From contig CAWEMM010000002.1 of the NCBI GenBank assembly GCA_963810095.1, positions 256,001-320,000 on the forward strand: a stretch of 64,000 nt of DNA. Reading direction: 5' to 3'. Source of the DNA: an uncultured Chloroflexia bacterium. Lineage in GTDB: Bacteria; Chloroflexota; Anaerolineae; CG2-30-64-16. The translations under genes were made by a program, and so were the position numbers. The notes under the pieces were generated by a model. The model searched no databases, was not told where the DNA came from, and was given only the letters and a program-made list of their open reading frames with translations. Shown one piece after another: positions 3,063 to 37,267 of the stretch (its first letter is position 1; the number at the start of each line of letters is the position of its first letter).

Positions 3063-3153
3063 CGTATTCCTTCCTTGACTTTCAATTCGCGTTATGAGCG
3101 ACAGCTTGTGAGCGCACTAGCGCCCGCATCCTCTGATCCGCCGCGCTGTTCCT

Positions 3154-4390: not shown

Positions 4391-4391
4391 A

Positions 4392-6101: not shown

Positions 6102-6105
6102 GACG

Positions 6106-14043: not shown

Positions 14044-15987
14044 TTAGGGTTTCGCGACGGTGATCGTCGTACCGTTGCTGTCGCCGTCGGGATCATGGTT
14101 CGCGCCGGCCTGGTAGGCCGAGCCGCTCAGGTTGATGCCCGACACGCTGAACGCGACGGTGGTCGTTCGCTTCGCAAGCGTTCCGGTCGAGACCGCGCAG
14201 CGTCCGGTTAAATCGGTCGTGCAGGTGGTCGTCCCGCTCGCGCCCGACCAACTGCCGCTCACCCTGGCCCCGGAAACCGGCACGTGGCTTCCGCCGTGCA
14301 CCTCGATGCTCACTTTCGCCGTCCAACTGCTGCTGCCGGTCGTCGTGCTGCGATCGAGGTCGCCCGCGTGAACCGAGGGCGAGCCGGCCGGGGTGGTTGT
14401 CGGCGTCGCAGTACTTGCCGCTGTCGGCGTAGCCGTGCGGGTGGCCGTGGGCGTCGCTGTCGGCATGGCGGTTGCCGTGGCCGTAGGCGTCGTCAATGCT
14501 GCGGTAGCCGTGGCGGTAGGCACCGGCGTGTCGGTAGGCGCGGCGGTTGCAGTCGCGGTCGGAGCAGGCGTATCGGTCGGGAGGGTCGCGGGCGTCGGGC
14601 CGGGCGTGGGCGTGGCGCCCGCCTGCAGCCACCGGTACGCCGCCAGGGCGTCGATGCGCCCCGCGCCAAAGGTGTTGTCGGGCCCTGCCGCGCCGAGATC
14701 GACTGCGGACTGGATCAGCGCGGCGGCCTGCTGGTCGGCGGTGAGGTCGGGGTAGGCGCTGAGCAGCAGCGCCAGCACGCCGGCCGCATGGGGGGCCGAC
14801 AGCGACGTGCCACTGGCCGGCGTGTAATTTCCCAGCAGGTCCGCGGTGCGCACGTTCACGCCGGGCGCGACGACTTCGGGGTAGGTCACCGACGCTTCGC
14901 CGCACGCGGACGGTCCCCGGCTGCTCGCGGCGTAGATCAAGTCGCTGTTGTTGGCGGCGCCAACCGCAAACGCCTCCGGGTAGTTGGCCGGGCTCACGCT
15001 GGTGGAGCCGTAAGGCCCGTAGTTCCCCGCTGCAAACACGGGCAGGATGCCCGCCGCTCGCAGCGCTCGCAAATCGGGTTGGAAGGCCAGGTTGCAGCCG
15101 ACGCTCCCGTAAGCCCACGAGTTGTTCACGATGTCCGCGCCATCCGCAGTCGTGGGGTCGTCGTCCGGGTCGAGCACCCACTGGAGCGCCAGGTGGATGG
15201 CGGTGGCGGTGGCCGAACCGGCGTCGTTGAAGATTTTGGCGGCAATCCACTGCGCGTCGGGCGCGACGCCGATTGACGTGCCGCCCGCGTCACCCCCGAC
15301 TAGGATGCCCATCGTCCACGTGCCATGCCCGGTCTTGTCGTACGGCGTCGTGGCGTGCTGGCCGTACGGGTCGTACCAACTACTACTGCCGCCGCGCCAG
15401 CGACCGCTGAGGTCGGGGTGGGTTGCGTCCACACCGCTGTCCAGCGCCGCGACGACGATCCCCTGCCCGCGCACGTTCGCGTCCCACAGGCTCGGCGCGT
15501 GGATGAGGTTCACGTTGGCTTCGGGTGGCGCGTAAGCCGGCGCGGCCGCCGGCACGACGTCGATCGCGTCGGGGGTGATGGATACGACTTCGGGCCGCTC
15601 GGCCAACTGCCGGATGATGCCCGGTCTAGCCGTCACCGAGAGCCCGTTCTGCAGCCAGAATGGCACGACCGTCGACACTGAACCGTCGGCTTGGCGCTGG
15701 GTGAGCCACGCGCGCAGCGGCGCCTGGCTTCGCTCGGCGGCCTGGCGCAGTCGTTCGACGACTACCAACTGCCGGTCTTTGCGGCTTAAGCCGGGCGCCG
15801 GCGCGAGATCGGTCTGCTGCACCAGCGTCACGATCGCCGTGACCTGCGCGTCCGGCGCAGCAGCATCGAGCGCCGCCTGCAGCGCCGGGTCGATTTTAGC
15901 CCCGTCTGCCCGGCCGGCGCCTGCAGAGCCGGGCAGCAGAAGCACGAGAACGAGCAACACCGCGCTTACGCCTGCTTTTTTCATCAT
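14044..15987 (-). CDS. Secreted S8 (subtilisin-like) serine protease with propeptide, Pro/Thr linker and C-terminal beta domain
   Basis: Catalytic triad LDSG / GHGTW / SGTSLSAPH; AAGN oxyanion motif; long PT/AT linker. Confidence 0.95.
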   Translation of the reverse strand: MMKKAGVSAVLLVLVLLLPGSAGAGRADGAKIDPALQAALDAAAPDAQVTAIVTLVQQTDLAPAPGLSRKDRQLVVVERLRQAAERSQAPLRAWLTQRQADGSVSTVVPFWLQNGLSVTARPGIIRQLAERPEVVSITPDAIDVVPAAAPAYAPPEANVNLIHAPSLWDANVRGQGIVVAALDSGVDATHPDLSGRWRGGSSSWYDPYGQHATTPYDKTGHGTWTMGILVGGDAGGTSIGVAPDAQWIAAKIFNDAGSATATAIHLALQWVLDPDDDPTTADGADIVNNSWAYGSVGCNLAFQPDLRALRAAGILPVFAAGNYGPYGSTSVSPANYPEAFAVGAANNSDLIYAASSRGPSACGEASVTYPEVVAPGVNVRTADLLGNYTPASGTSLSAPHAAGVLALLLSAYPDLTADQQAAALIQSAVDLGAAGPDNTFGAGRIDALAAYRWLQAGATPTPGPTPATLPTDTPAPTATATAAPTDTPVPTATATAALTTPTATATAMPTATPTATRTATPTAASTATPTTTPAGSPSVHAGDLDRSTTTGSSSWTAKVSIEVHGGSHVPVSGARVSGSWSGASGTTTCTTDLTGRCAVSTGTLAKRTTTVAFSVSGINLSGSAYQAGANHDPDGDSNGTTITVAKP

Positions 15988-16056: not shown

Positions 16057-16464
16057 TTACTTGACCACGAGCGTCCCGGTCATGCCCGCTTCAAGGTGCG
16101 CCGGCGTTCCGCAGACAACCGTGTAGGTCCCCGCCTCGGCCGGTGCGGCAAACTCCTCGGTCTTCGATTGTCCCGGTGCGGCTTCGATCTCCCAGAATAC
16201 TTTGGCTTCATCGTCATCGTCGAAGGGCGCGGTGACCTGTTCGCCCTGCTTGATGATCACCCACTCGTGCTCCAACTTGCCGTCGTTCTTGAGCGTCAGG
16301 GACACCGGCTGGCCCTTGTCCACCGTCCACGACGTCGGCGCGAACTTGAAGTCTGTCGTGGTTACGCTGATGGCGCTATTCTTTGCAGCGGCTCCCGCGC
16401 CGCATCCCACAAGGCTGACTGCCGCCGCAAGGACGACCAGCGCGGATGAAAGTCTCTTCAACAT
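16057..16464 (-). CDS. Blue (type 1) copper cupredoxin lipoprotein (auracyanin/plastocyanin-like)
   Basis: Lipobox LVGC; ligands EHEW and CGTPAHLEAGM (His, Cys, His, Met). Confidence 0.92.
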   Translation of the reverse strand: MLKRLSSALVVLAAAVSLVGCGAGAAAKNSAISVTTTDFKFAPTSWTVDKGQPVSLTLKNDGKLEHEWVIIKQGEQVTAPFDDDDEAKVFWEIEAAPGQSKTEEFAAPAEAGTYTVVCGTPAHLEAGMTGTLVVK

Positions 16465-16544: not shown

Positions 16545-17387
16545 TCATTGCACCGTCGTGGGCGGCAGGCGCAGCTCGCCGAACTGCAGGGCGACAGGCA
16601 TACCCGCGCGCACCACCTGGTCGGGGTTCGGATAGAACGCGTAGTAGGTGGCGCCGTTCTTCAGCTTACGCGCGTGCATGTGCTGGTTGGGTGGTGTGAG
16701 CACCGTCTTGCCGCCATCGACGATGATAACCGGCATCATCTCGTGGTTCGAGAGCAACGCCTCGGCCTTCGCTTTGTCCACCACCCGGAGTCGGATGTCG
16801 ACGATGCTGTCCATCATCGAAGGGGCCACCTGCAGCACCTCGACCCCGTACTGCTCGGCAAACGCCTGGACCGAAATGGGCTTGGCATTTTCCAGGGCCT
16901 CATGCGCCGGCTCGTGCCCTCCGCCCGCGGGCGCAAGCGCACCCCAGCCAAAGCCGGCCAGGCCAAAAGCAAGGACAAACCCGAGGGCCGCGCCCATCAC
17001 CAGCCGGGGATCCCAGCGCTTGGCCGGCCCGACCGACCGCCAGGGCTGGGCAGCCGCGAACAGAGCGACGAAGGCGCCCTCCAGCAGCATCGCCAGAAGT
17101 CCAACCGGGTACAGCCACTCTTCCACTTCCATGCCGGGGAGGCCCACCGTCCGCGTCACCACGTAGCCGGCGAGTGCGCCGGCCGCGACCCAGAAGCCCA
17201 GCACCCAGCCCCAGGTCGCGCCCCGGCGGATGCCGACCGCAGCCGCCAGGGCGGCGACGAAGTTGGCGACGAACAGGTAACCCAGGAGCGGCATTTCCTC
17301 GTACTCTGAGGGCGCCAGGAACAGGTGCAGTACCCCGATCAGTATGAGCAGGCCAATGCCCAGCCATTTCAGCTTTCGTGAGGTCAT
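16545..17387 (-). CDS. Membrane protein (~5 TM) with His/Met-rich extracellular domain
   Basis: Hydrophobic N-terminal half; C-terminal domain QYGVEV...VDIRLRVVDKAKA...YPNP is paralogous to 17421..17876; HEPAHE, NHEMM, QHMH. Confidence 0.78.
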   Translation of the reverse strand: MTSRKLKWLGIGLLILIGVLHLFLAPSEYEEMPLLGYLFVANFVAALAAAVGIRRGATWGWVLGFWVAAGALAGYVVTRTVGLPGMEVEEWLYPVGLLAMLLEGAFVALFAAAQPWRSVGPAKRWDPRLVMGAALGFVLAFGLAGFGWGALAPAGGGHEPAHEALENAKPISVQAFAEQYGVEVLQVAPSMMDSIVDIRLRVVDKAKAEALLSNHEMMPVIIVDGGKTVLTPPNQHMHARKLKNGATYYAFYPNPDQVVRAGMPVALQFGELRLPPTTVQ

Positions 17388-17420: not shown

Positions 17421-17876
17421 TCATTGGACCGGCAGCGGCTGCAAGCTGATGTCTCCGAAGGTCACGGCCACTTTCGTGCCGCGCTTAACGGCGTTCCCGC
17501 TGTTGGGGAACAGGCGGAAAAGGAGCTTCCCGTCCTCCGGCTTCTCCTGCGGCAAACCATCGTCCGGCGCGCGCAGCACCACTGCGGACCCGCTAACCCC
17601 CAGCGCGGGGGATAGGTTGCCCAGCAGCGCTGCGGCCTTCGCCGCGTCCGTCACTGTCAGGCGCAGGTCGACCATGCCGCCGGCCGCAGTGAGGGCCAGC
17701 AGGTTGACCCGCAGACCGTATTGCGCCTCCAACTGCTCGGCCGTGAGGGTCGTGCGAGCGGCGGGAGGTGGTGCGGCCGAAGCCGCGTTCGCCGCGCAAC
17801 CCCCCATCAGGGCTGCAACCAGCAGCAGGGATATGATGACGCCCGCCAGCCCGATCCGGCGCCTGTTTTCAACCAC
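17421..17876 (-). CDS. Lipoprotein of unknown function, MCO-cluster accessory
   Basis: Lipobox MGGC; QYGLRV...GGMVDLRLTVTDAAKA...FPNSG.VKRG.KV.V.FGD. Confidence 0.78.
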   Translation of the reverse strand: MVENRRRIGLAGVIISLLLVAALMGGCAANAASAAPPPAARTTLTAEQLEAQYGLRVNLLALTAAGGMVDLRLTVTDAAKAAALLGNLSPALGVSGSAVVLRAPDDGLPQEKPEDGKLLFRLFPNSGNAVKRGTKVAVTFGDISLQPLPVQ

Positions 17877-18015: not shown

Positions 18016-20976
18016 TCAGGGTCCGGCGAGCGGCGACACAGAACGCTTCGACGTGAAAGCGTCGAAGTACATCAGCGTGTTCGTGCCGGTGTTCGTGACC
18101 GAGCCCATGCGTACGGCCCCAACCGCCCCCGTGCTGGTCATGGTCAGCGTCTGCGCCTGCACGCCGTTCACGTAGAGTCGCAGCGTGCCCGGGTTGGGCC
18201 CCCCGCTGCCCACGGCCTGCCACACGACTTCGAGGAAGTTGTTGCTTGTGCCGCCGAGCAGGTTCGTCCAGGTCGAGTTCGTGTTGCTCGTCCCAGCCTG
18301 GATCTGCACCTGCGGCGTCGTCCCCGATAGCCGGTAGCGCACCCGGAACAGCGTGGTGCCGAAGGTGTTCGAGGTCGCGGCGCTCAGGATGTCCTTGCCG
18401 GTCGAGCTGTTGCCGTTCGGCCGGAAGTACATGCGGGCGTCGTAGGTGGCCGATGCCGGATTCGTCGCCGTGCCCCAGTTGTACTGCACGTAATTCGTGT
18501 TGTTGCCCTGGGATTGCAAGCCGTAGGCGCCCACCAGCTTCGCCGTCGTCGTGACGTTCAAGCGGCTCGTGTTGGTGGTGGAGCGGCTGGACCAGGCGCT
18601 GAAGTTGCCGGATTCGAAGCCGTCCGAGAAGATGACGTCGGGCGGCGAGACCGCTAGGGTCGCGGTCCGGATGCCGCTGCTGCCGGTGCTCCAGTTGCCG
18701 GCCGCGTCGCGAATGCGTGCGCTGACGGTGTAGGAGCCCAACGCCAGCGAGCCGACCGGAATGGTGGCCGTCGAGCCGGTGAATTGGGTGCCGCCACCAG
18801 GCGCCGGATTCGTGCTCGTCGGCGGGTTGATCCAGTACTCGCCGCCGGCCACACCCGCACCGCCCGCATTGTCGGCGGCGCCGTTAATCGTGAGGGTGAC
18901 GTTCGTCGCACCCGCGGTCGGATTGGGCGACAGGCTGATGCCCGTGAAGGTCGGCGCGGTCTTGTCGACCAGCAGGACCGTGGTTGCCGTCGGGCCCCAG
19001 TTGCCGGCTGCGTCGCGCCCGTGCACATAGACCGTGTGGTTACCCTGGCTTAGCGCGTTGATCGTCGTCAGCGGCACGTCGGCCGTCGCGGCTTCGGTCT
19101 GGCTGTTGAAGCTGCCGTCGCTGGCCGCGAACGGGAAGCCGGCGCCGTCTGCTCCCAGTGTGTCGATGAACCCTTCGCCGCCTGCGATCGCCGAGGCGGT
19201 GTCGGCCAGGGTCGCGGTGACCCGGACTGCCGGCGTGCTAGAGTTGATGCCGAGCGTCCCGTTGTTCGGGTTCGGCGCCGCCGCAACGCCGCTCGTCGCA
19301 GGCCCGGTCTTGTCGACGATCAAGCTGATCGTCGCGGGCGCACCCACGTTGCCCAGCGCGTCCGTGCTTTGAACCGAAACCGTGTGCGTGCCCGCGCTCA
19401 GCGTCGTGGCGTCGATCGTGGCCGTCAGGCTGGCCACCGGCGCCGAGCTCGTGTTGAGCGTCATGGCGCTGGCGGCGCCGCCGTCAATCTTGTATTGCGC
19501 CGAGGCGATGCTGCTGCCGCCGCTGGCGCTGTCGTCCGCGGTGCCACTCAGCGTCGCGCTGCCCGTGCCGTTGCTCGGGTTCGGCGCCAGCGTCAAACCC
19601 TTCGTCGCCGGTCCCGTCTTGTCGAGGTTCAGCGTCGCAAAGTTGAACGGCCCCCAGTTTCCTGCCGCATCCTGGCCGCGGATGTAGATCGTGTGGTTGC
19701 CGGAAGCCAGCCCGGCGAGGGTGGCGGGGCTCAGACTTGCGGTCACGGCTTCGGCTGCCGAATTGAAGGCTCCGTCGCCGGCCACCATGGCCATCGCCGC
19801 GGCGCCCTGACTGTCGATCCGGTACTCGGCCGCAGTGACGTTCGAGCCGCCGCTGGCTGCGTCGCTTACCGACGCGCTGACGGTGACCGCAATCGAGCCG
19901 TTGGTCGGGTTCGGTGCGAGGCCCGTCGAGGTCGTCGCCGGGCCGGTCGTGTCATTTCCCGGTGGGGTCGCCGTGCCGACGGTCAGGAAGGCGAGCATGC
20001 CGCCGAAGCCGGCCGCACTACTGTTCCTGAGCATCAGATTGGCATCATAGAGCGCAAACTTGCTACCCGCCGTCGCCCCCCCAGGGACGGTCACGATGGC
20101 GTCGGCTGTCTGGCCGGGCCCCAACGTCTCGGCCACCAGCCCGCGGCTCATGGAGAACGGGCTGCCGTCCGTCGCCACCAGCACCTGGTGCAGACCCAGC
20201 ACGCTCATGGAGTGCGGCATGAGGCCCGCGTTGACGAATCGCAGCAGCACCTTGTTGCCCGCCGACGTGGCGATCGCTTCAGTCTGCGGGAACGCCTTCC
20301 CGTTGACCAGGAAGTACTTTGGTGCGAAGTTGCGGATGTCAAACGTGGTCGGGTTCGCATTCAGCGCCGGATCGATCTCGCCCAGCACGACTTGTGCTTC
20401 GTCCGTATAAGCCGTTGACGGGTCCGCGTAAGCCTGGCCCGCACTGGCAGGTCGCACGACGAGGGTCCCGTACAGACCCATCGCCACCTGCCGCGGCTCG
20501 CCGGCCGACAAACCCGCCTCATAGAGGAACGTGCCGGGATTGCTCGCAGTGAAGGAGTAGGTCTTCGACCCGCCCGGCGCCACGCCTGCGGTGTCGGGGA
20601 CCATTTGCTGTCCCTTGAAGAGCAAGCTGGACGGCTCGGCCAAGTTGTTCGTGAGATTGACGGTCACCACGTCACCCTGGTTGACGATGAGCACCGGGCC
20701 CGGCACGCTCGCCGCACTGCCCGCGCTGGAGGCATAGGCCCACACGTTGACGGTTGCCCCGCCCGGCAGAGTCAGCGTGCCCGGCTTCGACCACAAGTTG
20801 CAGGTGGCCGCCCCGCCGGCTGACGTGCAGGGTGTCGCCGGCAGGCCCGCGGCCTCTGAGACGGCGGCCGGCACGGCCGCTAACAACGCGGTTGCCAGCA
20901 ACGCGGCCACCAACAGCAGGAGGCGCGCCGGGAGGCCAGCTCCCATCCCATGCTTGGTACTTGCTAATGCATGCAT
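18016..20976 (-). CDS. Two-domain MCO-like protein lacking Cu ligands + 4 Ig-like repeats + C-terminal beta-sandwich (subunit C)
   Basis: Sec signal; cupredoxin scaffold motifs PGPVLIVNQGD, PGTFLY, MGLYGTLVV, NGKAFP; ligand positions replaced (SLLFKG, LYEAG, HSMSVLG, LYDAN); DxTGP...DAAGNW repeats; IFSDGFESG. Confidence 0.85.
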   Translation of the reverse strand: MHALASTKHGMGAGLPARLLLLVAALLATALLAAVPAAVSEAAGLPATPCTSAGGAATCNLWSKPGTLTLPGGATVNVWAYASSAGSAASVPGPVLIVNQGDVVTVNLTNNLAEPSSLLFKGQQMVPDTAGVAPGGSKTYSFTASNPGTFLYEAGLSAGEPRQVAMGLYGTLVVRPASAGQAYADPSTAYTDEAQVVLGEIDPALNANPTTFDIRNFAPKYFLVNGKAFPQTEAIATSAGNKVLLRFVNAGLMPHSMSVLGLHQVLVATDGSPFSMSRGLVAETLGPGQTADAIVTVPGGATAGSKFALYDANLMLRNSSAAGFGGMLAFLTVGTATPPGNDTTGPATTSTGLAPNPTNGSIAVTVSASVSDAASGGSNVTAAEYRIDSQGAAAMAMVAGDGAFNSAAEAVTASLSPATLAGLASGNHTIYIRGQDAAGNWGPFNFATLNLDKTGPATKGLTLAPNPSNGTGSATLSGTADDSASGGSSIASAQYKIDGGAASAMTLNTSSAPVASLTATIDATTLSAGTHTVSVQSTDALGNVGAPATISLIVDKTGPATSGVAAAPNPNNGTLGINSSTPAVRVTATLADTASAIAGGEGFIDTLGADGAGFPFAASDGSFNSQTEAATADVPLTTINALSQGNHTVYVHGRDAAGNWGPTATTVLLVDKTAPTFTGISLSPNPTAGATNVTLTINGAADNAGGAGVAGGEYWINPPTSTNPAPGGGTQFTGSTATIPVGSLALGSYTVSARIRDAAGNWSTGSSGIRTATLAVSPPDVIFSDGFESGNFSAWSSRSTTNTSRLNVTTTAKLVGAYGLQSQGNNTNYVQYNWGTATNPASATYDARMYFRPNGNSSTGKDILSAATSNTFGTTLFRVRYRLSGTTPQVQIQAGTSNTNSTWTNLLGGTSNNFLEVVWQAVGSGGPNPGTLRLYVNGVQAQTLTMTSTGAVGAVRMGSVTNTGTNTLMYFDAFTSKRSVSPLAGP

Positions 20977-21009
20977 GTCATTCTCCTTGTTTCCTGCTTG
21001 TCAGGCCGC

Positions 21010-22314
21010 TCAGGGGCAATTGTTGGGCGCGGGCGGGTCGATACGCAGGTATGTGATCGGCCCGGTCATCGTCACGCCCCATGATGTGATCTGATACAGC
21101 GCATGGTTGTGCGCGATGATGTAGTATTCGCCGCACTGGTTCAACGTCGATTGGCCGGGCGGCATGGGCCCCGTCTTTCCGAGATACGGACTGCCCCCGT
21201 AGAACATGCCATAGACCATGTTGGCCATGTTGGGCACCGTCACCGGAACCGGATTGGTCGCCTCGTCGTAACGCTCCGCGTCATACCACTTGAAGACGAC
21301 GTCCCAGGTCTGGCCCGGCCCGATGTTGATGGCAAACTTCTCGAACGACATATCCTGGCCGGTCGGGCCGGCCAGCGGCTGCCCGTCGCGGCCGATGACC
21401 AGGCCGTTGTTGCCGTGCGGGTGGAACGGGTATTCCTCCGTGCCGACGTTCAGGTAGCGGATGGCGCCGGGCAGGGGATGCGTCGTCGCGTCAAAACCCT
21501 TGACGCGTGCCAGCGCTCCGTACGGCTGGGCCGGCAGCCAGTCGGCGTAGTTGTCCGCAATGCTATCGGGGAAGCCGCGGCCGTTGATGAGCCAGTAGCG
21601 AGGCTTGTAATTGTTGAGGTTGAAGCTCTTGCCCTGCTCCGCGGCCTGGTGCTGGTACGGGTCGATTTCGGACAGGAGAACGAGGAACTCCTCGCCCGGC
21701 GTAAACTGGCTGTCCGCCCGGTTGTACATGAAGTTCGCGCCCATGCTGGGCCGCACGATCAACGCGCCGAACAGCCCCATGCCCACCTGCTTGCGAGGGT
21801 TGGTGCCGCTCTCGTAGATGTACGTGCCGGGATTGGCGGCGACAAAGCTATACGTGATGCTCCCGCCGTTCTTGGCCGCCACGTTGGTCAGCGAGGTCAG
21901 CGCGCCGCCCGCATCAAACTGCGGCTGGGCGGCCGCGCCGTTGGCCTGCACGTTCTCCTGGCCAGGGAACATGATCGAAGCATCTTCCGAAAGGTTGTTT
22001 TGCAACGTCACCGTCACCGTATCGCCCTGGTTGACGCAGAGCACCGGTCCGGGGTGTTGGAAGGGCTTGCCGCCCTCCGAGTAACCCCACATGAACATGG
22101 TATTGCCGTCGGGCAGGCTGATATAGCCGGTCTGTGCGCTGAGCGTGAAGGTCGGATTCGGGCTCGCGCCTGTCGTGCAGGCGATCCCGACGGTCGGACC
22201 GAGCGCCTGGGCCTGCACGGGCTGCGTCTGCGCCAACGGCGCAATGGACGCCAGCACGGCCACCACCAGCAAGACCGAGCCTCTTCCCATCCATCTGATC
22301 AAAGAGTTTCGCAT
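21010..22314 (-). CDS. Two-domain MCO-like protein with His ligands only in domain 2 (subunit B)
   Basis: Sec-type signal; domain 1 SIMFPG / YIYESG has no His; domain 2 has YPFHPHG and IAHNH; no type 1 Cys. Confidence 0.87.
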   Translation of the reverse strand: MRNSLIRWMGRGSVLLVVAVLASIAPLAQTQPVQAQALGPTVGIACTTGASPNPTFTLSAQTGYISLPDGNTMFMWGYSEGGKPFQHPGPVLCVNQGDTVTVTLQNNLSEDASIMFPGQENVQANGAAAQPQFDAGGALTSLTNVAAKNGGSITYSFVAANPGTYIYESGTNPRKQVGMGLFGALIVRPSMGANFMYNRADSQFTPGEEFLVLLSEIDPYQHQAAEQGKSFNLNNYKPRYWLINGRGFPDSIADNYADWLPAQPYGALARVKGFDATTHPLPGAIRYLNVGTEEYPFHPHGNNGLVIGRDGQPLAGPTGQDMSFEKFAINIGPGQTWDVVFKWYDAERYDEATNPVPVTVPNMANMVYGMFYGGSPYLGKTGPMPPGQSTLNQCGEYYIIAHNHALYQITSWGVTMTGPITYLRIDPPAPNNCP

Positions 22315-22349
22315 CGTGTCGCTCCTTATGCCATGACCCGCACGCCCGG

Positions 22350-23714
22350 TTACGTGTTGGGAATCGACTGCTGCGCCAGCGCGCCGGACGGATATACCCG
22401 CACCTCTGTGCGCTGCCCGCCAAACCCGCCGTCGGCAAGGTTGTTCGAGCGGGTGAGCTGGCGGTTGTAGAGCACGTAGGTATCGAAGGCGCCCGGCCCG
22501 CGGTAGGGCGGCGCATCGAAAATCACGTCGAAGCTCTCACCCGCGCCCATCGTGATAGTGTCGGTCAGGTACTGCGTGTTCGTGCCGTCGCGGCCGCGCA
22601 TCAGCGTGGCGTCCCGCCCCACGACCCGCATCTTGATCCCCGGCAGCGTCATGCTGGCTTCCTTGAAGCCCAGGTTGGCAAACCGGAGCAGCACCCGCTC
22701 GCCGGCATTGCAGTTGACCAGCGCCGAGAGCGGCTGATATTTCAACCGGTCGTACCCGGCCGGCGGAATGAGGTCGCCGTCGGCATCGCGCACGGGGTTG
22801 AAAGGATCGATCGAGCCGTTGGGTGCCAGCGTGTCGGGATAGACTCGACCGTTCAGCATCGCGAAGTCGGCCCGGTAGTCGCTCCATTCGGGCAACTGGA
22901 TGTGTGCGTCGGCCCAGTGCGCCTCGGCCCACACCTCGCTCAGGAACATCGCGAACTCGCGATCAAACCCGGTCGACCCGTCCCCGTCGTTGTACGCATA
23001 CTTGCCGCTCGGATAGAACGCCGTGTTCCCGTCCTGCAGCGGCCGCACGAATACCAGGCCGGTCATGCCCATGTGCACATGCTCCACGTCCTCGACGTGG
23101 CAGTGATACATGTACGTCCCCGGGTCGCGCGGCCGGTAGACATAGGTGAACTCGGTGCCCGCGGGCACCGACACGGAGCCCGTCGGTTCGCCATCGAAGA
23201 ACGGGATGACGTTGCGGAAACCATGCCAGTGCAGCGTATGCGCATCGAACAGGTCGGGGCGCTGCGCCAACCCCAGGTTGGTGATCTTGACCCGAAAGTC
23301 CTTCGGCGCGGCCGGATCGAACTGCTTGGCCCAGAAGATCGGCGCGTTGTGCTGCGCCTTGTTCTTCTGGTTCGACCGCTGCTGATCGGTCAGCCCGGTG
23401 ATGTTCCGGAAGCCGAAGATATAGGTCGTGAACGGCGGGGGCGCATACGGGTCGGGATGAACGACTTTGCCGTCCCACGTGATTTGCGGCGTCGGCGGCA
23501 GGTAAATCCAGCCGTCGGTGCCGCCGAAGAACAAGTCAGGCGGCGCATCCTGCGCCTGGGCCACGCCTTCGGGCAGCAGCACCCGGCGCAGCGCCGGCGA
23601 GGCGAGCGCCCGCGGGGCCAGCGCCGCACCAGCAGTCAGCGCGGCCGCGCCCCCTGCGAGCTTCAGGAAGTCCCGGCGGCCGAGACGACGAGAGAACGAT
23701 TCCCTGCTCATCAA
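22350..23714 (-). CDS. Tat-exported two-domain MCO with type 1 site and His ligands only in domain 1 (subunit A)
   Basis: Tat motif GRRDFLK; AHTLHWHG and YHCHVEDVEHVHMGM; domain 2 ASMTLPG / VLYNRQ lacks His. Confidence 0.92.
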   Translation of the reverse strand: MMSRESFSRRLGRRDFLKLAGGAAALTAGAALAPRALASPALRRVLLPEGVAQAQDAPPDLFFGGTDGWIYLPPTPQITWDGKVVHPDPYAPPPFTTYIFGFRNITGLTDQQRSNQKNKAQHNAPIFWAKQFDPAAPKDFRVKITNLGLAQRPDLFDAHTLHWHGFRNVIPFFDGEPTGSVSVPAGTEFTYVYRPRDPGTYMYHCHVEDVEHVHMGMTGLVFVRPLQDGNTAFYPSGKYAYNDGDGSTGFDREFAMFLSEVWAEAHWADAHIQLPEWSDYRADFAMLNGRVYPDTLAPNGSIDPFNPVRDADGDLIPPAGYDRLKYQPLSALVNCNAGERVLLRFANLGFKEASMTLPGIKMRVVGRDATLMRGRDGTNTQYLTDTITMGAGESFDVIFDAPPYRGPGAFDTYVLYNRQLTRSNNLADGGFGGQRTEVRVYPSGALAQQSIPNT

Positions 23715-23787: not shown

Positions 23788-26700
23788 TCAGGGCAGCAGC
23801 GTGTCGCCGCGGAAGTCGTCGACCCGTGCATTCGCCGGCAGCTGGATGCCGATCCGGCCGGTGCCAGTGAAGCCGGTGCCTGCGGCCCGGCCGACAAACG
23901 CGCCGTTCTTGAAGACGGCCACGCTACCATCGGCGTAGGCGGCTGCAGCCAGCGTATCGCCTGTCACGAAGGCCGCGGTCATCGTTTGGCCACGTGTCGT
24001 GTAGCTCAGCCCTCCGTTCGTTGTCGTCGCAACAGTGAGCTGACCGCCGCCGGTGGTCTGGTACTGCACCCGGATGAAGTTGGTCGGCAGCGTCGCGCTG
24101 CTGCCAGTCACCTTGAGCACCAGGCCAGAGCCGCCGGCCGGCGCGTTGGCGAACGTGAACGCGACCGCTTGCCCTGCGCCAAACCCGGTGGTCGGCACGT
24201 TCCAGAACGCGGCGCCGAGGACGCTGGCGAACGCCTGGTTGCTGTTCACGCGGATCGCCGCCGAGCCGAACGCGGTCACCTGGCTCCAGTTGTTGCCCAG
24301 CGTGTTCGCGTTGGTCCGGTTGAAGTTGTCACGGACCGTCAGCGCCGGCAGCGTGGGCGTGGTCAGCGCCAACGTGTCGGTGGCGCTGTTGTTCGCCGTG
24401 TTCGGGTCGATCGCGTTCGCCGGCAGCGTCACGGTCGCAGTGTTCACCACTGAGCCGCTGGCGTTATAGGCCAGGGTGGCGTTGGCGGTGAAGGTAACCG
24501 AGCCGCCCGCGGGCAGGTTCACGCTGCTGTTGATCGAAGCCGAGCCGCTAGCCGCGCTGCACGCAGCGCCCCCGGCGGCCGTGCAGGTCCAGCTCACGCC
24601 CGTCACCGCCGCGGGGAAGCCGTCCGTGACCGTCGCCCCGTTGATCGCGTTCGGCCCCGCGTTGGCTGCCCGGATGGTGTAGATCACCGTGTCGCCCGGC
24701 TGCGCGGTCGAGGGGCTGTGCGTCTTGGTGATGCTCAGGTCGCCCGAAGCGAGTTGCGGCAACTCGTCCGCACCCGAGTCGTAGCCGGCGCCGGCGGGCC
24801 GCAAGTCGTTGTCGAAGTCAAACGCCGGCGCGTTCACCCCCGTCTTCGAGGCCGCGCCCGCGTCCTTCGCCGGTGACGTGTTGGTCAGGTGGTAGTTGCC
24901 CAGCAGGGTCGGCGGCAGGTCGGCCGCAACCATGATCGGGGCCACGAAGTTCGGGTTGTTGCGCCAGACGTTGAACGCGACCGAGAGGTCGAAAGTGGTC
25001 TGCACGGCCGGGTCGACGATCTGGTTCGTGGGCGACGCGATCGTGCCTGTGGTGGTCTGCAGCAGCGAATTGGTCGGCGACACCTGGCCGAAGCCATCCG
25101 CGACGCCCAGATCCCAGTTGTAGATGTCGCCCGCGCCGCCAATGCCTAGCCCGGTCACCGAGCCCCCGGCACGCGTGCCGGCCCGGTTGTCCCAGAAGAT
25201 GTTGTTGAACAGCAGCGGGTTGCTGAAGGCGGGCGAGCCCGCAGGCAGGGTGGCCTGCAACTGGTCGCTGTTCAGCGAGGTGGACAGGCCCGCAGGCGCC
25301 GGTTGTCCGTTGCTGGTGACCGCGGTCGCCGTGGTCAGGTTCTTCATGAACGTGTTGTTGTAGACTCGCACCTGGGGTGCATCGTTGATGCCGATGCCGC
25401 CGCCTTCGTGGGTGGAGACGTTGTTCACGATCATGTTGTTGTACACGTTCATCGGGAAGTTGCCGGCCATCAGGAAGCGCAGGCCGCCGCCGTCGTCGTT
25501 GCCCAGGTTCGCCTGGATCAGGTTGTTGTAGATGTCCACCGGGCCAGAGCCGGGCGACAGGGTGGCCGGATTCGCGGGGAGTTGACCCGCGATCATGATC
25601 CCGCCGCCTTCGTCGTAGGACTGGTTGAAGTAGATCCGGTTGTGGTGGATCTTGCCGCTTGGGCTGTAGCCATAGACGCTCAGCGCGCCGCCGTACTCGG
25701 CCGAGAAGTTGCCGCACAGGTCGTTGTTCGCGACCTCGTAGTTGTCGGCCCCCGCAAAGAGCCCGATACCGCCGGCCAGGTTCGTGCCGCCGTTGTGGAT
25801 GATCCGGTTGTTGGCGATGCGGACGTTCTCGTTGTGCTGGTTTGTATCCGGCGCAGGCAGGTCAGGCGTGCCGAGGCGGATGGTGCCATAGGCGCCGCCG
25901 TTGTTCTCGATCACGTTGTTCGTGATCTGCAGGTACCTGACGTATGCGTTGGCAAAGATCGCACCGCCCTGGGTCTCCACCGCCGGAGGCTGACCGGTTG
26001 CGCCGCCGCCAATCTGGTTGATGTTGTTCGGGAAGCCCATCTGATCGCCGCCGCGGATGTCAAACCCGTCGATGGAGGCCCTGAACGAGTTGCCGAACTG
26101 GTTGACGTTCGCCAGCAGATAGATCCCTGCGCCTTCGTACACGTTCTGGTTGCCGGCCCACGACAGCGTGGCGATCTTCGCACGCCACGCGTCGGCCAAT
26201 GCCGTGTCGCCGCCGAAGGCGCCCGCGTCGATGATCGAGCCGGGGACGAAGGTCGTGCCCTGGAAGCCGCCGGGACCCACGCCCTGCAGCTTGATTGGGT
26301 TCGAGACGATCAGGTTCTCGTAGTACGCGCCGCGTGGGTTATTGCGCGGATTCGTCAGGTCCGGCTGGCCGGGATAGACGACCACCAGGCCGCCCCGGTA
26401 GTTGCCGGGCGCCGCGTCATCGGCTGCACTCTTGTCGATCGCGGCCTGGATCGTGGCGAAGGCCTTGCCCGGCCCCACCTCGTAGACCACCGGGTTGTAG
26501 GTGCCGGCGATGATGTGCATGGTCAAGCCGTTGACGGTGCTCTGGCCGTTGTTGGCCGTGACGGCCAGTTGATGCGGGCCGCCGAAGTTGCCGGGAATGC
26601 TCGACGGCACCCGGACGACGATCTGCGTGTCCGACCAACTGGTGACGGACAGCGCCGTGTTTCCGTCCAGCGTCACCTTGCTCTTGCTGCCCTGGGCTCC

Positions 26701-29700
26701 AAAGCCCGTGCCCGTGATCGTGAACGAAGTGTTCGGGCTCACGTTGGGCTTGGAGACCCGGAGCAACTGCGGTGTGGCTGCATCCAGCGTGCAGCTGACC
26801 TGGTTCACCTGGCCGCCGGGAAGCTGGACGGTGACGCCGACCTGGGTCGGCGCGAGGTCGGCCGGCACCAACAGCCCCGGAATCGTCTCGAATTCGGCTG
26901 CGATCGTCCGGAACTGCGGCTTGTAGTTCGGGTTGAGCACGCCCGGCGTGCCCGGGTCGTTGCCTACAAAGCGGTACAGGTTGGCGCACACGCCCGAGGG
27001 CGTCGGGCAACTGATGCGGTTGCTCGACGGCAAGAGCACGTCCCAGAGACCGTTGAAGTCGGATTCGACCGTCTGCACCAGCCGGTTGGTCCAATCATAG
27101 ATGCCTACCGGCGCGAACGGCACGCCCGCCTTCTCGCCGAAGAGCAGCGAGCGGGGATCGCCCGAGAAGTTCAGGTCGTCGACGACAAGGCCCCAGATGC
27201 GTGTGGGCAGCGGGACGTCGGTGAAGACGTTGAAGGTCGGGACGATCGACTTGCCGTTGTTGAGTTGCACCAGCTTCGTGTCGCAGTACGGCCGGGCTTG
27301 GCCCTCGTACGGCGACGCGCCGATGTCGAGGAACGTGGGGTTGTCCACGGGCGTCGAGGCCGGCACGGTCACACCGAGGGGCACCGTATTGCCGTCGCCT
27401 GCCTGCGGGGCATAGCCATCCGTGCCAAAGTTCAGCACGTCGACCGTGTGCAGGGGGCCTGCGCATGCGGGCGGCGGCACCTGCGGGACGAACTGGTCGC
27501 CGTTGGCGATGTTGATGTCCTCTTCGCGCGTGAACTGGTAGGTGGGCTGACCCCGGACGTCCGCGGGCACCTCGACATGGACGAGGTAATCACGGCCGCC
27601 GGGCAGCGGATCGAAGGTCCCACCCACGCACACCGGGTTCTCTGGGTCAGTCGCGTCGAGCGTGCCGTTGAAGCAGCCGTCGCCGAAGCCGTAGTTCCCG
27701 TCGACCGCCGCGCCGAAATTGGCATCCGGCGTGCCCTGGTCGGTCGCGTACGGCCCGAACTGCACGCCCATCAGCGGCCCCTCCAGACAGTCGGTGCTCG
27801 CCGCGGTCACCTTTTGGTCGTTCGGATACGCCAGCGGGTTGCCGTCCACGTCGCGCGCGATGCAGTTGTCGCTGGGCCGCTGCCAAGATTCGGTCACGTA
27901 GGTGTTCAGCAGCTTGCCGCGGGAATAGGAGCCGTCCGGCTCCAACTGGTACCAGCCGTCGGCGTCGCAGGGCTTGCTGCCGTCGACGGGGCAGTCGACC
28001 GGCTCATACAGGTCGACGGTGAGCCCCGATACCCCGGGTTGCCAGTCTTCGACGGCCGCATAGCGCGGGTCCAGCTCGTTGCGGGTGGTGTCGTAGCTGA
28101 CCGTGCCGACGATGCCGCCGTTGCGCGGGTCGATCCCGTTCGTGCCGGCCGCATCATAGGCGTGCAGGCCCCAATCGAGGCGCCCGCTCAGACCGATAAT
28201 CGGCAGCACGCTCACGTCGACGCCCGATCCGAGCACCGTGGTGGGCGCGGCCTGATTGTCGGCCTGGTAGGTGATGCCGGTCGTGTAGTAGAGGTCGCTG
28301 TACGCTTCTTCGACCAGCCACTGCGTCATCGGGTAGGCGTTCTCCATGACGTAGTAGCCGTTGGCGTCGGTCGTCACGGCCGTCGCGCCGCGATCCATCA
28401 GCGAGTTTTCGCGCTTGCGCATGGTCAGCGTGAAGTTCGGAATGCCCGGCTCGCCGGGGTCTTTGATGCCGTTGCGGTTCGTGTCGTTGAAGACGTAACC
28501 GTCGATCTGGGTCCACCAGCCGGTCAGCGGCAGGATGCCCATGTCGACCAGTTCGCCGTTGCGCACGGTGACGTTGAGCAGGTCGAAGATGTAATCCTGC
28601 GGCTCGTCCCACCATGAGAGGGTGTAATTACCGTCCGGCACGTTCTTGATGTCGAACGCGCCGTTGGCGTCGCCCTGGCCGACATATACGACGGAGTCGC
28701 CGTTGGTCAGGTCCGTAAGTGCGACCCACGGCTCGGGAATCGGCTTGTCGATTTTCGCGCCCGTCATGCCACCCCAGATGGTGCCGGGCAGGCCGAGCCC
28801 GCCCTTGGCCGGGACGTAGACCTTGGCCGCGTCGATCACGCCCTTGATCTCGCCGCTGCCGCCGGCCAGCGAATTGCCCGGATTAACAAAACCAAAGAAG
28901 GTCGCCGGGAACGGCTCGCCCGCGACGACAAATTCCGTATCGTAGCCGGTCGCGCCTTCCATGACCCAGGCGTCCCAGTCGTGATTGCCTTCGAGCGTCG
29001 TCGTCTGAATCCACGTCTGACCGTCAGGCGGGGTCACAGATAAGGCATAGCGGTTGGGGCCCATGTGCGGGATTGCCAGGTCCCCGTTCGCGTCGCTGAG
29101 GCACTTCCCGCCGGTGCCCGGAAGCGGGATAGGGAGTTGGTCGGCGTCCAGCGCGCTCGTCGGGATCTCGAACGTCGCGGGATCCTCGCCCTGGTATTTC
29201 GTGCACAGCGGGTTGCCGTAGATGTCAGTGGTGACTTCGCCGAGGTAATCGGCGATGTGCCCCTGGAAGCCGGCCAGCCCGTGCTCGGCCGGAGCGTCAG
29301 GCGCGCTGTTCACGGGCGATGAGTCCTCGAACACCCAGGTGCGGATGGTCGCATCGGGCACCGGCCATGGCTGGAGCTCGACGGTGAGTGGGCCGGCCGT
29401 CGGCATCGTGAAGTGCGCGCCGTCCAACTTATAGCCATCGGCCAGTACCGAGATCAGGTAGCGGCCGTCGGGCAGCGAGAGACCGCTCGCGAAGTCGTCC
29501 TGGTCGCCCTGCGTGACGATGGGGCTCGAGCCCGGGACGCCGGCGATCGAGGTCCACTTGCAGGTGCCCGGGTAGCCCGGATCGTTGGGCGTACATGCGC
29601 CCGGTAGCGCACCCGTTGTCGGGTCAGGCCGCTGGTCGGTCGTGCCGGTATTGTCCAAGTTGATGATGTACTTGTACGTGGTAATCTTGTCACCCTGGTT

Positions 29701-35606: not shown

Positions 35607-35645
35607 ACCAACTCCCTCAAGATGCTTCCCAAACGGACCCCTCTG

Positions 35646-35717
35646 AACCACAAAGGCACAAAGACACAACGCCCATCAAGCCTTCATGCGTGTTCGTGGC
35701 TTAGTGTCTTTGCGGTG
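35646..35717. repeat. Imperfect palindromic element, family B (ACCACAAAG.CAC..AG ... CTT.GTG.C.T.G.GGT)
   Basis: Related copies at 39083-39205 and 60814-60885; ~8-9-bp periodic units. Confidence 0.7.
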
Positions 35718-35736
35718 GAAACGAAACCTCGGCTGT

Positions 35737-37234: not shown

Positions 37235-37267
37235 ACAAACCAGGTTTCTCCTAGAAACCAGGTTTGT
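37235..37267. repeat. REP-like palindrome, family C (AAACC.GGTTT-Nx-AAACC.GG.TT)
   Basis: Copies at 45007-45039 and 58539-58571; half copy at 60783-60796. Confidence 0.75.

What the first reader, a model, noticed from the sequence alone, without database searches (positions are those of the whole stretch)
18016..23714. Putative heterotrimeric multicopper oxidase: three two-domain paralogs with complementary copper ligands
Seen in sequence: three consecutive genes each encode two cupredoxin domains. A (Tat signal) has HTLHWH and HCHVEDVEHVHMGM in domain 1, giving a full type 1 site plus 4 His, but no ligands in domain 2. B has no ligands in domain 1, but HPH and HNH (4 His, no Cys) in domain 2. 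C has lost the ligands in both domains and carries Ig-like repeats. Established: two-domain MCOs (small laccases; NirK-like architecture) are homotrimers whose T2/T3 site forms between domain 1 of one subunit and domain 2 of the next, and a trinuclear cluster needs 8 His. Inference: no subunit works alone. A-domain 1 plus B-domain 2 supply exactly 8 His, and C closes the six-domain ring and tethers it. The result would be a split, ceruloplasmin/MnxG-like asymmetric ring with one T1 and one trinuclear site. I know of no characterised example, but I could not search.
Basis: partly seen in the sequence, partly recalled or inferred. Interest (0 to 1): 0.93.

Follow-up and report, generated by a model that had tools for sequence, protein, structure and literature searches.

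The report
Split-site heteromeric two-domain multicopper oxidase
Three neighbouring genes encode related copper-oxidase subunits that each lack part of the copper-binding set, so they probably must assemble with each other to make one working enzyme, in a widespread gene cluster nobody seems to have described.

Summary
On the minus strand lie three paralogous two-cupredoxin-domain genes. A (22350-23714, Tat signal) has a type 1 site plus 4 His in domain 1. B (21010-22314) has 4 His in domain 2 only. C (18016-20976) has no ligands and carries an Ig-repeat tail. The ligand pattern is invariant or nearly so in 81 A, 79 B and 77 C sequences. It recurs in a second clade only 32-42% identical. B follows A in 76/76 and 53/53 loci with room, and C follows B in 67/67 and 46/46. 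An A+B model scores ipSAE 0.88 against 0.00 for the best control. It puts A His162/164 against B His298/300/404. Natural fusions exist: giant upstream protein with A, and B with C. The A-B split trinuclear site is therefore well supported in silico. Ring closure by C remains inferred. It could not be modelled (size limit), and a conservation test gave no support. The three genes belong to a conserved core of scaffold, A, B, C, small anchored protein and S8 protease. The substrate is unknown. No description was found in seven literature searches.

The parts
23788..29937 (-). 'Big': a 2049-aa secreted scaffold protein with prealbumin/SdrD_B Ig-like domains, a TIG domain, a right-handed beta-helix region, DUF11 and a C-terminal domain. 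It is the first gene of the cluster.
   Evidence: Pfam hits are. It lies upstream of A in 71/71 clade-1 loci with room. It is homologous over nearly its whole length to the N-terminal ~1700 aa of natural Big-A fusion proteins such as P0135.
22350..23714 (-). Subunit A: a two-domain multicopper oxidase paralogue with a Tat signal. Domain 1 has a T1 site (His159, Cys205, His212, Met217) and four trinuclear-cluster His (162, 164, 204, 206). Domain 2 has no ligands.
   Evidence: all eight ligands 81/81; fold matches (2zwn, 3g5w).
23598..23714 (-). Tat signal peptide of A (residues 1-39, motif GRRDFLK).
23223..23240 (-). HTLHWH in A: T1 His159 plus T2/T3 His162 and His164.
   Evidence: His162 and His164 lie in the modelled A-B interface.
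23064..23105 (-). HCHVEDVEHVHMGM in A: T3 His204, T1 Cys205, T3 His206, T1 His212 and axial Met217.
   Evidence: The spacing is the same as in 3g5w (HCHVNVNEH).
21010..22314 (-). Subunit B: a two-domain paralogue with a Sec-type signal. Domain 1 has no ligands. Domain 2 has four His (298, 300, 402, 404).
   Evidence: (HPH and HNH align with HSH and HDH of 2zwn).
21415..21423 (-). HPH in B (His298, His300).
   Evidence: 79/79 each. Both are in the modelled interface.
21103..21111 (-). HNH in B (His402, His404).
   Evidence: 76/77 and 77/78. His404 is in the modelled interface.
19957..20805 (-). Copper-less two-cupredoxin module of subunit C (residues 58-340).
   Evidence: Pfam; hhalign to B. 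There is no HCH in 60/60 rows and no HxH in 57/60 rows.
18016..19956 (-). Tail of C: Ig-like repeats (Big_13, Y_Y_Y-like) and a C-terminal domain.
   Evidence: The tail is replaced by cadherin-like Ig domains in clade 2.
17421..17876 (-). g151: a small protein with one N-terminal transmembrane helix and a ~100-aa beta-sandwich domain. It is a conserved cluster member of unknown function.
   Evidence: Present in 65/66 clade-1 loci with room. The model has pLDDT 88.9 with no PDB fold match at E<=0.001. No Pfam hit.
16545..17387 (-). g280: a polytopic membrane region followed by a domain homologous to g151.
   Evidence: No Pfam hit.
16057..16464 (-). A small single-domain cupredoxin (plastocyanin/CopI-like). 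It is lineage-specific.
   Evidence: It was found in only 1 of 80 related loci (L002).
14044..15987 (-). S8 subtilase, the conserved last gene of the core cluster.
   Evidence: Pfam hit of 168 bits. Present in 41/43 clade-1 loci with room and in many clade-2 loci.

Best explanation
A and B are obligate partners of one extracytoplasmic multicopper oxidase.

A domain 1 holds the blue (T1) copper that takes electrons from the substrate, plus the Cys-His bridge and four His. B domain 2 supplies the other four His. The single O2-reducing trinuclear cluster can therefore form only at the A/B interface, giving 4 Cu per assembly.

C is a copper-less third paralogue. It most likely fills the third position of the six-domain ring typical of this fold. 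Its Ig-repeat tail probably positions or tethers the complex.

The oxidase works together with the giant upstream beta-helix/Ig scaffold protein, which is fused to A in another clade. Other partners are a small membrane-anchored beta-sandwich protein, copper-handling genes that vary by lineage, and an S8 protease.

A is exported folded by Tat, while B, C and the scaffold use Sec. Assembly and copper loading of the shared site must therefore happen outside the cytoplasm.

The arrangement arose by triplication of a homotrimeric two-domain oxidase of the T1-in-domain-1 type, followed by complementary loss of ligands.

Shown here: ligand pattern, conservation, synteny, fusions and paralogy. Modelled: the A-B interface. 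Inferred: C in the ring, 1:1:1 stoichiometry, the export and assembly order, catalysis. The substrate is unknown.
For: 1. Ligand pattern. A's T1 and 4 His are 81/81. B's 4 His are 79/79, 79/79, 76/77 and 77/78. C has none. No HCH occurs in any of 60 C rows.

2. The same pattern holds in a clade only 32-42% identical. A-like domains have 8 ligand positions at 18-19 of 19. B-like His are 55/55, counting 54 loci plus the window. C-like modules lack HxH in 35/38 rows.

3. Synteny. B follows A in 76/76 and 53/53 loci with room. C follows B in 67/67 and 46/46. The scaffold lies upstream in 71/71.

4. Complex model of A(44-454)+B(38-434). ipSAE was 0.90, 0.88 and 0.88 in three runs, and the best of 3 controls was 0.00. 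The runs agree in at least 91% of contacts and partner pLDDT is at least 93. That mark was reached by 58 of 80 solved complexes and by 2 of 110 mismatched pairs, though these counts hold only roughly because my own alignments were used. The interface holds A 162, 164-174 and 208-214 and B 298, 300-303 and 403-407.

5. Modelled interface positions are more conserved than the rest: A 0.91 vs 0.80, p=0.0014; B 0.87 vs 0.78, p=0.0035.

6. In the A monomer model, the low-confidence loops (167-178, 210-212, 269-276) are the interface loops.

7. Rosetta-stone fusions. Scaffold-A fusions of 1994-2267 aa include P0135 from Methyloprofundus sedimenti. B-C fusions are P0142 and P0143, with the B part keeping its 4 His and the C part ligand-less.

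8. A, B and C are paralogues. A's best sequence and fold matches are 3g5w and 2zwn. In the 3g5w alignment, the HCH motif is in the N-terminal domain and HxH/HDH in the second.

9. Copper-handling neighbours. A CopC-CopD gene is present in 37 of 80 clade-1 loci. The window has a cupredoxin instead.

10. The eight genes lie on the same strand with gaps of 33-139 nt.
Against: - The positions that would form the B-C and C-A interfaces by pseudo-symmetry are not more conserved than the rest. They are somewhat less so: B 0.72 vs 0.80, C 0.62 vs 0.68 and 0.66 vs 0.67, A 0.75 vs 0.83. This mapping rests on low-identity alignments and ignores burial.
- The complex score may partly reflect the model's memory of solved homotrimeric two-domain oxidases, so it shows likeness rather than binding. 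A+A, B+B and A+B+C were not modelled, so partner specificity and stoichiometry are untested.
- His204, His206 and His402 are not among the residues named in the interface.
- Only two B-C fusion clusters were found (1 and 6 member sequences).
- There is no biochemical, copper-content or expression evidence.
- The distance correlation between A, B and C (r 0.68-0.77) is expected for any linked genes.
Confidence: 0.6

Rival explanations
1. The enzyme is an A-B heteromer only (a dimer, or a ring such as A-B-B). C is not part of the ring. It would be a separate copper-less accessory that uses its cupredoxin module and Ig tail for something else, such as anchoring, substrate binding or assembly.
For: The conservation test gives no sign of constrained B-C or C-A faces. 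C is the least conserved of the three, with mean column identity 45% against 59% and 62%. C's tail varies between lineages.
Against: The C module is present in every locus with room (67/67 and 46/46). B-C fusion proteins exist. From recalled general knowledge, all solved two-domain oxidases and NirK are trimers, so an A-B pair would leave a two-domain gap.
Confidence: 0.25
2. Each paralogue forms its own homotrimer. A3 would be a blue-copper electron carrier, or would have a reduced copper site. B3 and C3 would have other roles. The complementary pattern would be coincidental.
For: Homotrimers are the rule for this fold. Homo-oligomers were not modelled here.
Against: - Four invariant His in A domain 1 and four in B domain 2 would have no partners in homotrimers, yet they are kept in two clades that have diverged to about 35% identity.
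- The A-B model scores 0.88 against 0.00 for controls, with these His facing each other.
- Co-occurrence is strict.
Confidence: 0.08
3. The paralogues are decaying duplicates with no oxidase activity (pseudo-enzymes kept as structural surface proteins).
For: C has lost all ligands. Four of the six domains bind no copper.
Against: The remaining 12 ligand positions are invariant or nearly so across 160 loci from several phyla. A itself is 64-79% identical across phyla. Copper-handling genes sit in the cluster.
Confidence: 0.04

Closest known systems
Homotrimeric two-domain multicopper oxidases with T1 in domain 1 ('type C' in the recalled Nakamura and Go scheme): Nitrosomonas europaea blue copper oxidase (PDB 3g5w) and metagenomic mgLAC (PDB 2zwn)
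   Same: The fold is the same: two cupredoxin domains. They are the best sequence and fold matches of A. The HxxHxH and HCHxxxxxH...M motifs lie in domain 1. B's HPH and HNH align with HSH and HDH of 2zwn domain 2. The trinuclear site lies between domain 1 of one chain and domain 2 of the next.
   Different: In those enzymes one gene product carries all 12 ligands and forms three identical sites. Here the ligands are divided between two gene products, a third product has none, and at most one site can form. The chains here are 100-150 residues longer, and C has a ~640-aa tail.
Six-domain multicopper oxidases (ceruloplasmin, hephaestin, Bacillus MnxG); features recalled from general knowledge
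   Same: They form an asymmetric six-cupredoxin-domain ring with a single trinuclear cluster at one domain interface. The other interfaces are copper-less.
   Different: Those are single polypeptides, and ceruloplasmin keeps three T1 sites. Here the ring would be built from three separate paralogous chains with one T1. There is no close sequence relationship: ceruloplasmin E is about 1e-3 over about 70 residues.
Multi-subunit multicopper oxidases: iodide oxidase IoxA/IoxC (PMC9415286, passages read) and the Mnx complex MnxG-MnxE-MnxF (recalled; named in bioRxiv 10.1101/2022.11.10.515945, passages read)
   Same: These are oxidases purified as complexes of more than one gene product, encoded in operons with copper-chaperone genes.
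   Different: IoxA carries all four copper-binding regions itself. MnxG is a complete six-domain oxidase, and MnxE and MnxF are small non-MCO proteins. In neither case is the trinuclear site split between two different gene products.
MofA of Leptothrix discophora (a large putative Mn oxidase)
   Same: It is a large secreted protein with MCO motifs. Its homologues are reported in Actinobacteria and deltaproteobacteria (bioRxiv 10.1101/2022.11.10.515945, passages read).
   Different: MofA has all four MCO motifs in one chain. Its operon partners are a Mip-type isomerase and a cytochrome c protein (PMC8218464, passages read), not MCO paralogues.
Copper nitrite reductase NirK
   Same: It is a trimer of two-cupredoxin-domain chains with T1 in domain 1 and a catalytic copper at the inter-subunit interface. 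There are weak sequence hits.
   Different: NirK has one T2 copper with 3 His, not an 8-His trinuclear site, and it is a homotrimer. All scores are far below the NCBIfam cut-off (26-42 bits against 296).

Membership tests
Multicopper oxidase / cupredoxin superfamily | Cupredoxin domains recognised by the MCO profile families | tested here: met
   PF07732 scores 43.6 (A), 43.1 (B) and 57.6 (C) bits against a cut-off of 21. The A model matches 521 PDB chains at E<=0.001, and all those listed are MCOs or NirK.
Multicopper oxidase / cupredoxin superfamily | One chain carries a T1 site and all 8 His of a trinuclear cluster | tested here: not met
   A has T1 plus 4 His, B has 4 His, and C has none.
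Two-domain MCO, T1 in domain 1 (type C) | Two cupredoxin domains per chain | tested here: met
   Fold matches for A are 2zwn (E 4.9e-17) and 3g5w (TM 0.67 on the target, rmsd 4.7). Both domains of B and C align to each other.
Two-domain MCO, T1 in domain 1 (type C) | T1 ligands (His, Cys, His, Met) in domain 1 | tested here: met
   Met for A only: His159, Cys205, His212 and Met217, each 81/81. B and C have Ala/Ser/Gln/Leu-type replacements.
Two-domain MCO, T1 in domain 1 (type C) | Four His in domain 1 and four His in domain 2 of the same chain, giving three sites per homotrimer | tested here: not met
   No chain has both sets.
Two-domain MCO, T1 in domain 1 (type C) | Homotrimeric assembly | not tested
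A3, B3 and C3 were not modelled.
Six-domain MCO (ceruloplasmin/MnxG type) | Six cupredoxin domains in one polypeptide | tested here: not met
   There are three separate ORFs with their own signals and stop codons, separated by gaps of 35 and 33 nt.
Six-domain MCO (ceruloplasmin/MnxG type) | A single trinuclear cluster at one domain interface of a six-domain ring | tested here: inconclusive
   The A domain 1 / B domain 2 interface is modelled with the His facing each other. The full ring with C was not modelled. The conservation test gave no support.
Copper nitrite reductase (NirK, TIGR02376) | Score above the curated cut-off of the equivalog model | tested here: not met
   Scores are 26.5, 42 and 41.4 bits against a cut-off of 296.3.
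MofA-type Mn oxidase operon | One large chain with all four MCO motifs, with mofB (Mip) and mofC (cytochrome c) as neighbours | tested here: not met
   The features come from passages in PMC8218464. Here the motifs are split, and no Mip or cytochrome c gene lies in the cluster. There was no direct sequence comparison with MofA.

The most novel reading that the evidence does not exclude
This is a previously unrecognised and very widespread extracellular oxidase machine. It occurs in Chloroflexota, Actinomycetota, Anaeromyxobacteraceae, a Methyloprofundus genome and many sediment and soil metagenomes.

Its catalytic core would be an obligate A-B-C heterotrimer: a six-domain ring with one T1 and one trinuclear cluster, built from three paralogues by complementary ligand loss. 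That would be an independent, multi-gene route to ceruloplasmin-like asymmetry.

The core would be mounted on a ~2000-aa beta-helix/Ig scaffold and matured outside the cell by a dedicated protease and copper-handling proteins, acting on an extracellular (possibly metal or polymeric) substrate.
Probability: 0.45. Interest if true: 0.85.

Novelty: new variant of a known kind. Interest (0 to 1): 0.78.

Why it matters
Multicopper oxidases are textbook enzymes, and the two-domain forms are treated as homotrimers.

A natural system in which the O2-reducing cluster is shared between two different gene products, with a copper-less third paralogue, would be a living intermediate in the proposed path from trimeric two-domain ancestors to asymmetric six-domain oxidases. 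It would also be a clear case of an obligate heteromer arising by complementary degeneration.

There are practical consequences too:
- Each of these genes is now annotated simply as a 'multicopper oxidase', and surveys for laccases or Mn oxidases may count them as such, although none should work alone.
- Expressing a single one heterologously would probably fail.
- The cluster is common in soil, sediment and wastewater bacteria, including cultured Nocardioides, Cellulomonas, Xylanimonas, Intrasporangium and Humibacillus strains. Its unknown substrate could therefore matter for metal or organic-matter cycling, and it is directly testable.

Tried and rejected
- Three-chain model. A+B+C needs about 1075-1090 residues even after trimming signals, which is over the 1000-residue limit. 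Only A+B was modelled. No A3, B3 or C3 models were possible because the cap is one job.
- Conservation test of pseudo-symmetric interfaces. It gave no support for B-C or C-A contacts. I kept it as evidence against, not as a refutation.
- A-B fusions. None were found. The long 'B' or 'A' ORFs are overlapping-frame artefacts of GC-rich DNA.
- N-terminal extensions of C in some loci. L014 and L038 were tested. They are Ig-like, carboxypeptidase-regulatory or DUF11 domains, not extra cupredoxin modules.
- MofA identity. Rejected from the operon and motif description.
- NirK identity. Rejected by score.
- g151 function. There is no Pfam or NCBIfam hit. The Atlas gave only unnamed clusters. The fold search gave no match at E<=0.001.
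- Scaffold central region. The Atlas gave only SdrD_B/fn3_3-type clusters. The PDB sequence search found only SdrD.
- Promoter and terminator scan. It found no more than chance.
- Distance correlation of A, B and C. Not used as evidence for binding, because linkage explains it.
- Literature. Searches found no heteromeric split-site two-domain oxidase. The 'heterotrimer' of Nmar_1354 is a proteolytic alpha-alpha-alpha' form of one gene product (passage). The library lacks most subscription journals, and supplements were closed, so a description could exist that I could not see.
- No expression data were sought: the look-up of sequencing runs and read laying were not used.

Full report
**What is there**

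Between 14044 and 29937, eight ORFs lie on the minus strand with gaps of 33-139 nt:
- a 2049-aa secreted protein, 'Big' (23788-29937)
- A (22350-23714, 454 aa)
- B (21010-22314, 434 aa)
- C (18016-20976, 986 aa)
- g151 (17421-17876)
- g280 (16545-17387)
- a small cupredoxin (16057-16464)
- an S8 subtilase (14044-15987)

A, B and C all pass the Pfam multicopper-oxidase families, and C also has Ig-like repeats. They are paralogues. Profile comparison gives A vs B probability 99.7% at 29% identity over 258 columns, and B vs C probability 100% at 39% over 241 columns.

The window's own genome is 6.13 Mb in 16 contigs and has one copy of A. The nearest relatives of A are from Chloroflexota MAGs.

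Translation of the exact coordinates gives HTLHWH (A 159-164), HCHVEDVEHVHMGM (A 204-217), HPH (B 298-300) and HNH (B 402-404).
- A has no His after residue 271.
- B domain 1 has only His87.
- The C module has no His at any ligand position. B His298 and His300 align with C Ser258 and Leu260.

In the alignment with PDB 3g5w, the solved enzyme has HTIHWHG and HCHVNVNEHVTM in its first domain, and HAIHTHGH and HDH in its second. B's HPH and HNH align with HSH and HDH of 2zwn. So A looks like such an enzyme that has lost the domain 2 set, and B like one that has lost the domain 1 set. The AlphaFold model of A (pLDDT 75.8) finds 2zwn and 3g5w among its best fold matches.

A carries a Tat motif. By inspection, B and C have ordinary hydrophobic signals without a twin arginine.

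**Conservation**

A has more than 3429 homologues at E<=0.001 among 8000 scored. The best 120 are 68-79% identical and come from Chloroflexota and Actinomycetota.

I examined the best 80, L001-L080. Results for these loci:
- All eight ligands of A are kept in 81 of 81 sequences.
- B His298 and His300 are 79/79, His402 is 76/77 and His404 is 77/78.
- C has no conserved ligand.
- No HCH occurs in 60 of 60 C rows, and no HxH in 57 of 60. The three exceptions are at scattered positions.

Gene order in these loci is Big, A, B, C, g151-like, then S8. Counting only loci whose contig extends far enough:
- B follows A in 76 of 76.
- C follows B in 67 of 67.
- Big precedes A in 71 of 71.
- A g151/g280-like gene follows in 65 of 66.
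- S8 follows in 41 of 43.

The two loci without B (L025, L071) end about 200 nt after A.

**A second, distant clade**

Searching for longer relatives of A found proteins of about 2000-2270 aa. In these, a Big-like region is fused to an A-like module at the C terminus. The Big-like region shows 27-32% identity to Big over roughly 1000-1700 of its residues. The A-like module is 35-40% identical to A. An example is P0135 from Methyloprofundus sedimenti. The A-like modules keep the T1 and four His, at 18-19 of 19 rows per position. The one deviant is P0124.

A metagenome scan with 13 of these proteins gave 509 relatives, of which I examined the best 80, L085-L164. In them:
- A B-like gene follows in 53 of 53 loci with room.
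- A C-like gene follows in 46 of 46.
- All four B His are kept in 55 of 55 rows (54 loci plus the window).
- By a crude frame test, Big and A are in one frame without a stop in 10 of 77 loci.

C-like modules lack HxH in 35 of 38 rows. One locus read in detail (L112) has Big (1667 aa), A (421), B (442), C (601, an MCO module plus three cadherin-like Ig domains), a g151-like gene (157) and S8 (587), with unrelated flanks.

The triplication and the complementary ligand loss therefore predate the split of two clades that now share only about a third of their residues.

**Do A and B bind?**

The single complex job was given mature A (44-454) and B (38-434), each with a 60-row alignment.
- ipSAE was 0.90, 0.88 and 0.88 in three runs. 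The best of three controls scored 0.00.
- The runs agree in at least 91% of contacts, and partner pLDDT is at least 93.
- The mark was reached by 58 of 80 solved complexes and by 2 of 110 mismatched pairs. These counts hold only roughly, because my own alignments were used.

The interface contains A 158, 162, 164-174, 176-184 and 208-214, plus parts of A domain 2. On the B side it contains only domain 2 residues, including 298, 300-303, 397-400 and 403-407. So A His162/164 face B His298/300/404, as the split-site idea requires.

Three caveats apply. The tool warns that a pass for a family with solved complexes may be memory of those complexes. His204, His206 and His402 are not among the residues it names. 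Homo-oligomers were not tested.

Two independent observations fit the model. The modelled interface positions are more conserved than the rest (A 0.91 vs 0.80, p=0.0014; B 0.87 vs 0.78, p=0.0035). The loops that AlphaFold could not place in A alone (167-178, 210-212, 269-276) are interface loops in the complex.

**Is C in the ring?**

This could not be modelled, because the three mature modules exceed 1000 residues.

For it:
- C is present in every locus with room.
- Two natural proteins, P0142 (1177 aa) and P0143 (1167 aa, 6 member sequences), join a B-like module to a C-like module. The B-like module is 46-47% identical to B and keeps all four His. The C-like module is 43-46% identical to C and has no ligands. 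About 430 residues separate the two.
- From general knowledge, this fold always forms three-subunit, six-domain rings, so an A-B pair leaves a two-domain gap.

Against it:
- I mapped the modelled A-B contact positions onto the homologous positions of B, C and A. These presumed B-C and C-A faces are not more conserved than the rest (0.72 vs 0.80; 0.62 vs 0.68; 0.66 vs 0.67; 0.75 vs 0.83).
- That test is weak. The alignments are of low identity, burial is not controlled, and copper ligands inflate the A-B values. Still, it is a negative result.

I put the 1:1:1 ring at about even odds and the A-B split site at about 0.8.

**The wider system and likely mechanism**

The Big-A fusions argue that the scaffold is physically part of the enzyme. 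Big combines prealbumin/SdrD_B-type Ig domains, a TIG domain, a right-handed beta-helix and DUF11. One fusion protein has a weak NosD-like hit.

g151 is a membrane-anchored beta-sandwich with no known relative. g280 ends in the same domain.

Copper-handling genes vary by lineage. A CopC-CopD fusion sits between g151 and S8 in 37 of 80 clade-1 loci. Judging by record titles, these are the actinobacterial loci. The window has a small cupredoxin instead.

Because A uses Tat and the others use Sec, I infer the following:
- The shared trinuclear site is assembled and metallated outside the cytoplasm.
- Electrons enter at the T1 copper of A and pass through the Cys205-His204/206 bridge.
- They reduce O2 at the A/B cluster.

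The electron donor is unknown, and nothing in the cluster points to one. The conserved Glu208 and Glu211 next to the T1 His lie in the modelled subunit interface, so they are not a clear metal-substrate site.

**Comparison with what is known**

The closest solved relatives are the homotrimeric two-domain oxidases 3g5w and 2zwn. The present proteins fail the defining feature that one chain carries both His sets.

The predicted assembly works like a six-domain oxidase such as ceruloplasmin, with one cluster in an asymmetric ring, but it is not one polypeptide.

The known multi-subunit oxidases differ in having a complete catalytic chain. These are IoxA/IoxC (passages of PMC9415286) and the Mnx complex, whose composition is recalled. 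MofA has all four motifs and different operon partners (passages of PMC8218464).

Seven full-text searches found no description of a split-site heteromeric two-domain oxidase or of this cluster. The library is incomplete and supplements were closed.

**Verdict**

The central inference, that no subunit can work alone and that A domain 1 plus B domain 2 make the only trinuclear site, is well supported by conservation, synteny and one controlled model. The heterotrimer with C is plausible and partly supported by fusions, but it is untested.

This is a new variant of a known enzyme kind, embedded in a conserved and widespread six-gene core system that appears to be undescribed.

Noticed in passing
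A residues 122, 266, 271 (window about 22902-23351, minus strand); B residue 222: Three extra His are invariant in A (81/81 each). His266 aligns with B His222, which is kept in both clades (66/79 and 55/55). They are not canonical copper ligands and their role is unexplained.
   Followed up: partly
L001 and L014; L015 and L035; L020 and L032: By record title, each pair of loci comes from one MAG. Some genomes therefore carry two full copies of the cluster.
   Followed up: no
L001-L080: A is 64-79% identical between Chloroflexota, Actinomycetota and Anaeromyxobacteraceae records. This is unusually high across phyla and suggests horizontal spread of the whole cluster.
   Followed up: no
window 12418-13851 (-): A 477-aa beta-helix protein lies just after the S8 gene. 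It recurs next to the cluster in only 5 of 80 clade-1 loci and in 0 of 80 clade-2 loci. In L017 and L076 it sits where S8 is missing.
   Followed up: partly
A5 alignment; e.g. L012 13591-14109: Actinobacterial g151-like proteins have a His-rich loop (PPHHHG). The Chloroflexota versions, including the window's, have acidic residues there. g280's copy has HMH.
   Followed up: no
L014 10738-12387; L038 11372-12310: Some C genes carry an N-terminal extension of 300-550 aa before the cupredoxin module. It is made of carboxypeptidase-regulatory, Big_1 or DUF11 domains.
   Followed up: yes
P0124 (810 aa): This is an A-like module in a protein that one source names alkaline phosphatase (PF00245 precomputed). 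Two of its trinuclear His are replaced (Leu and Arg), so it may be a degenerate offshoot.
   Followed up: no
P0145-P0149 (772-798 aa): These are B-like proteins (42-46% identical, all four His kept) with a ~350-aa C-terminal extension. The extension matches neither C nor any Pfam family.
   Followed up: partly
window 33207-36919 (-): A carotenoid gene set lies here: phytoene/squalene synthase and two amine-oxidase-type desaturases, followed by a GT2 glycosyltransferase at 37251-38453.
   Followed up: no
window 1758-7239 (-): An HtrA-type protease with a PDZ domain, a MacB-type permease and a HlyD-type adaptor lie here. They are unrelated to the cluster.
   Followed up: no
B residues 46, 93, 394, 433: Four Cys are conserved in clade-1 B (75-79 of 77-79) but absent in clade 2. 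They may form two lineage-specific disulfides.
   Followed up: no
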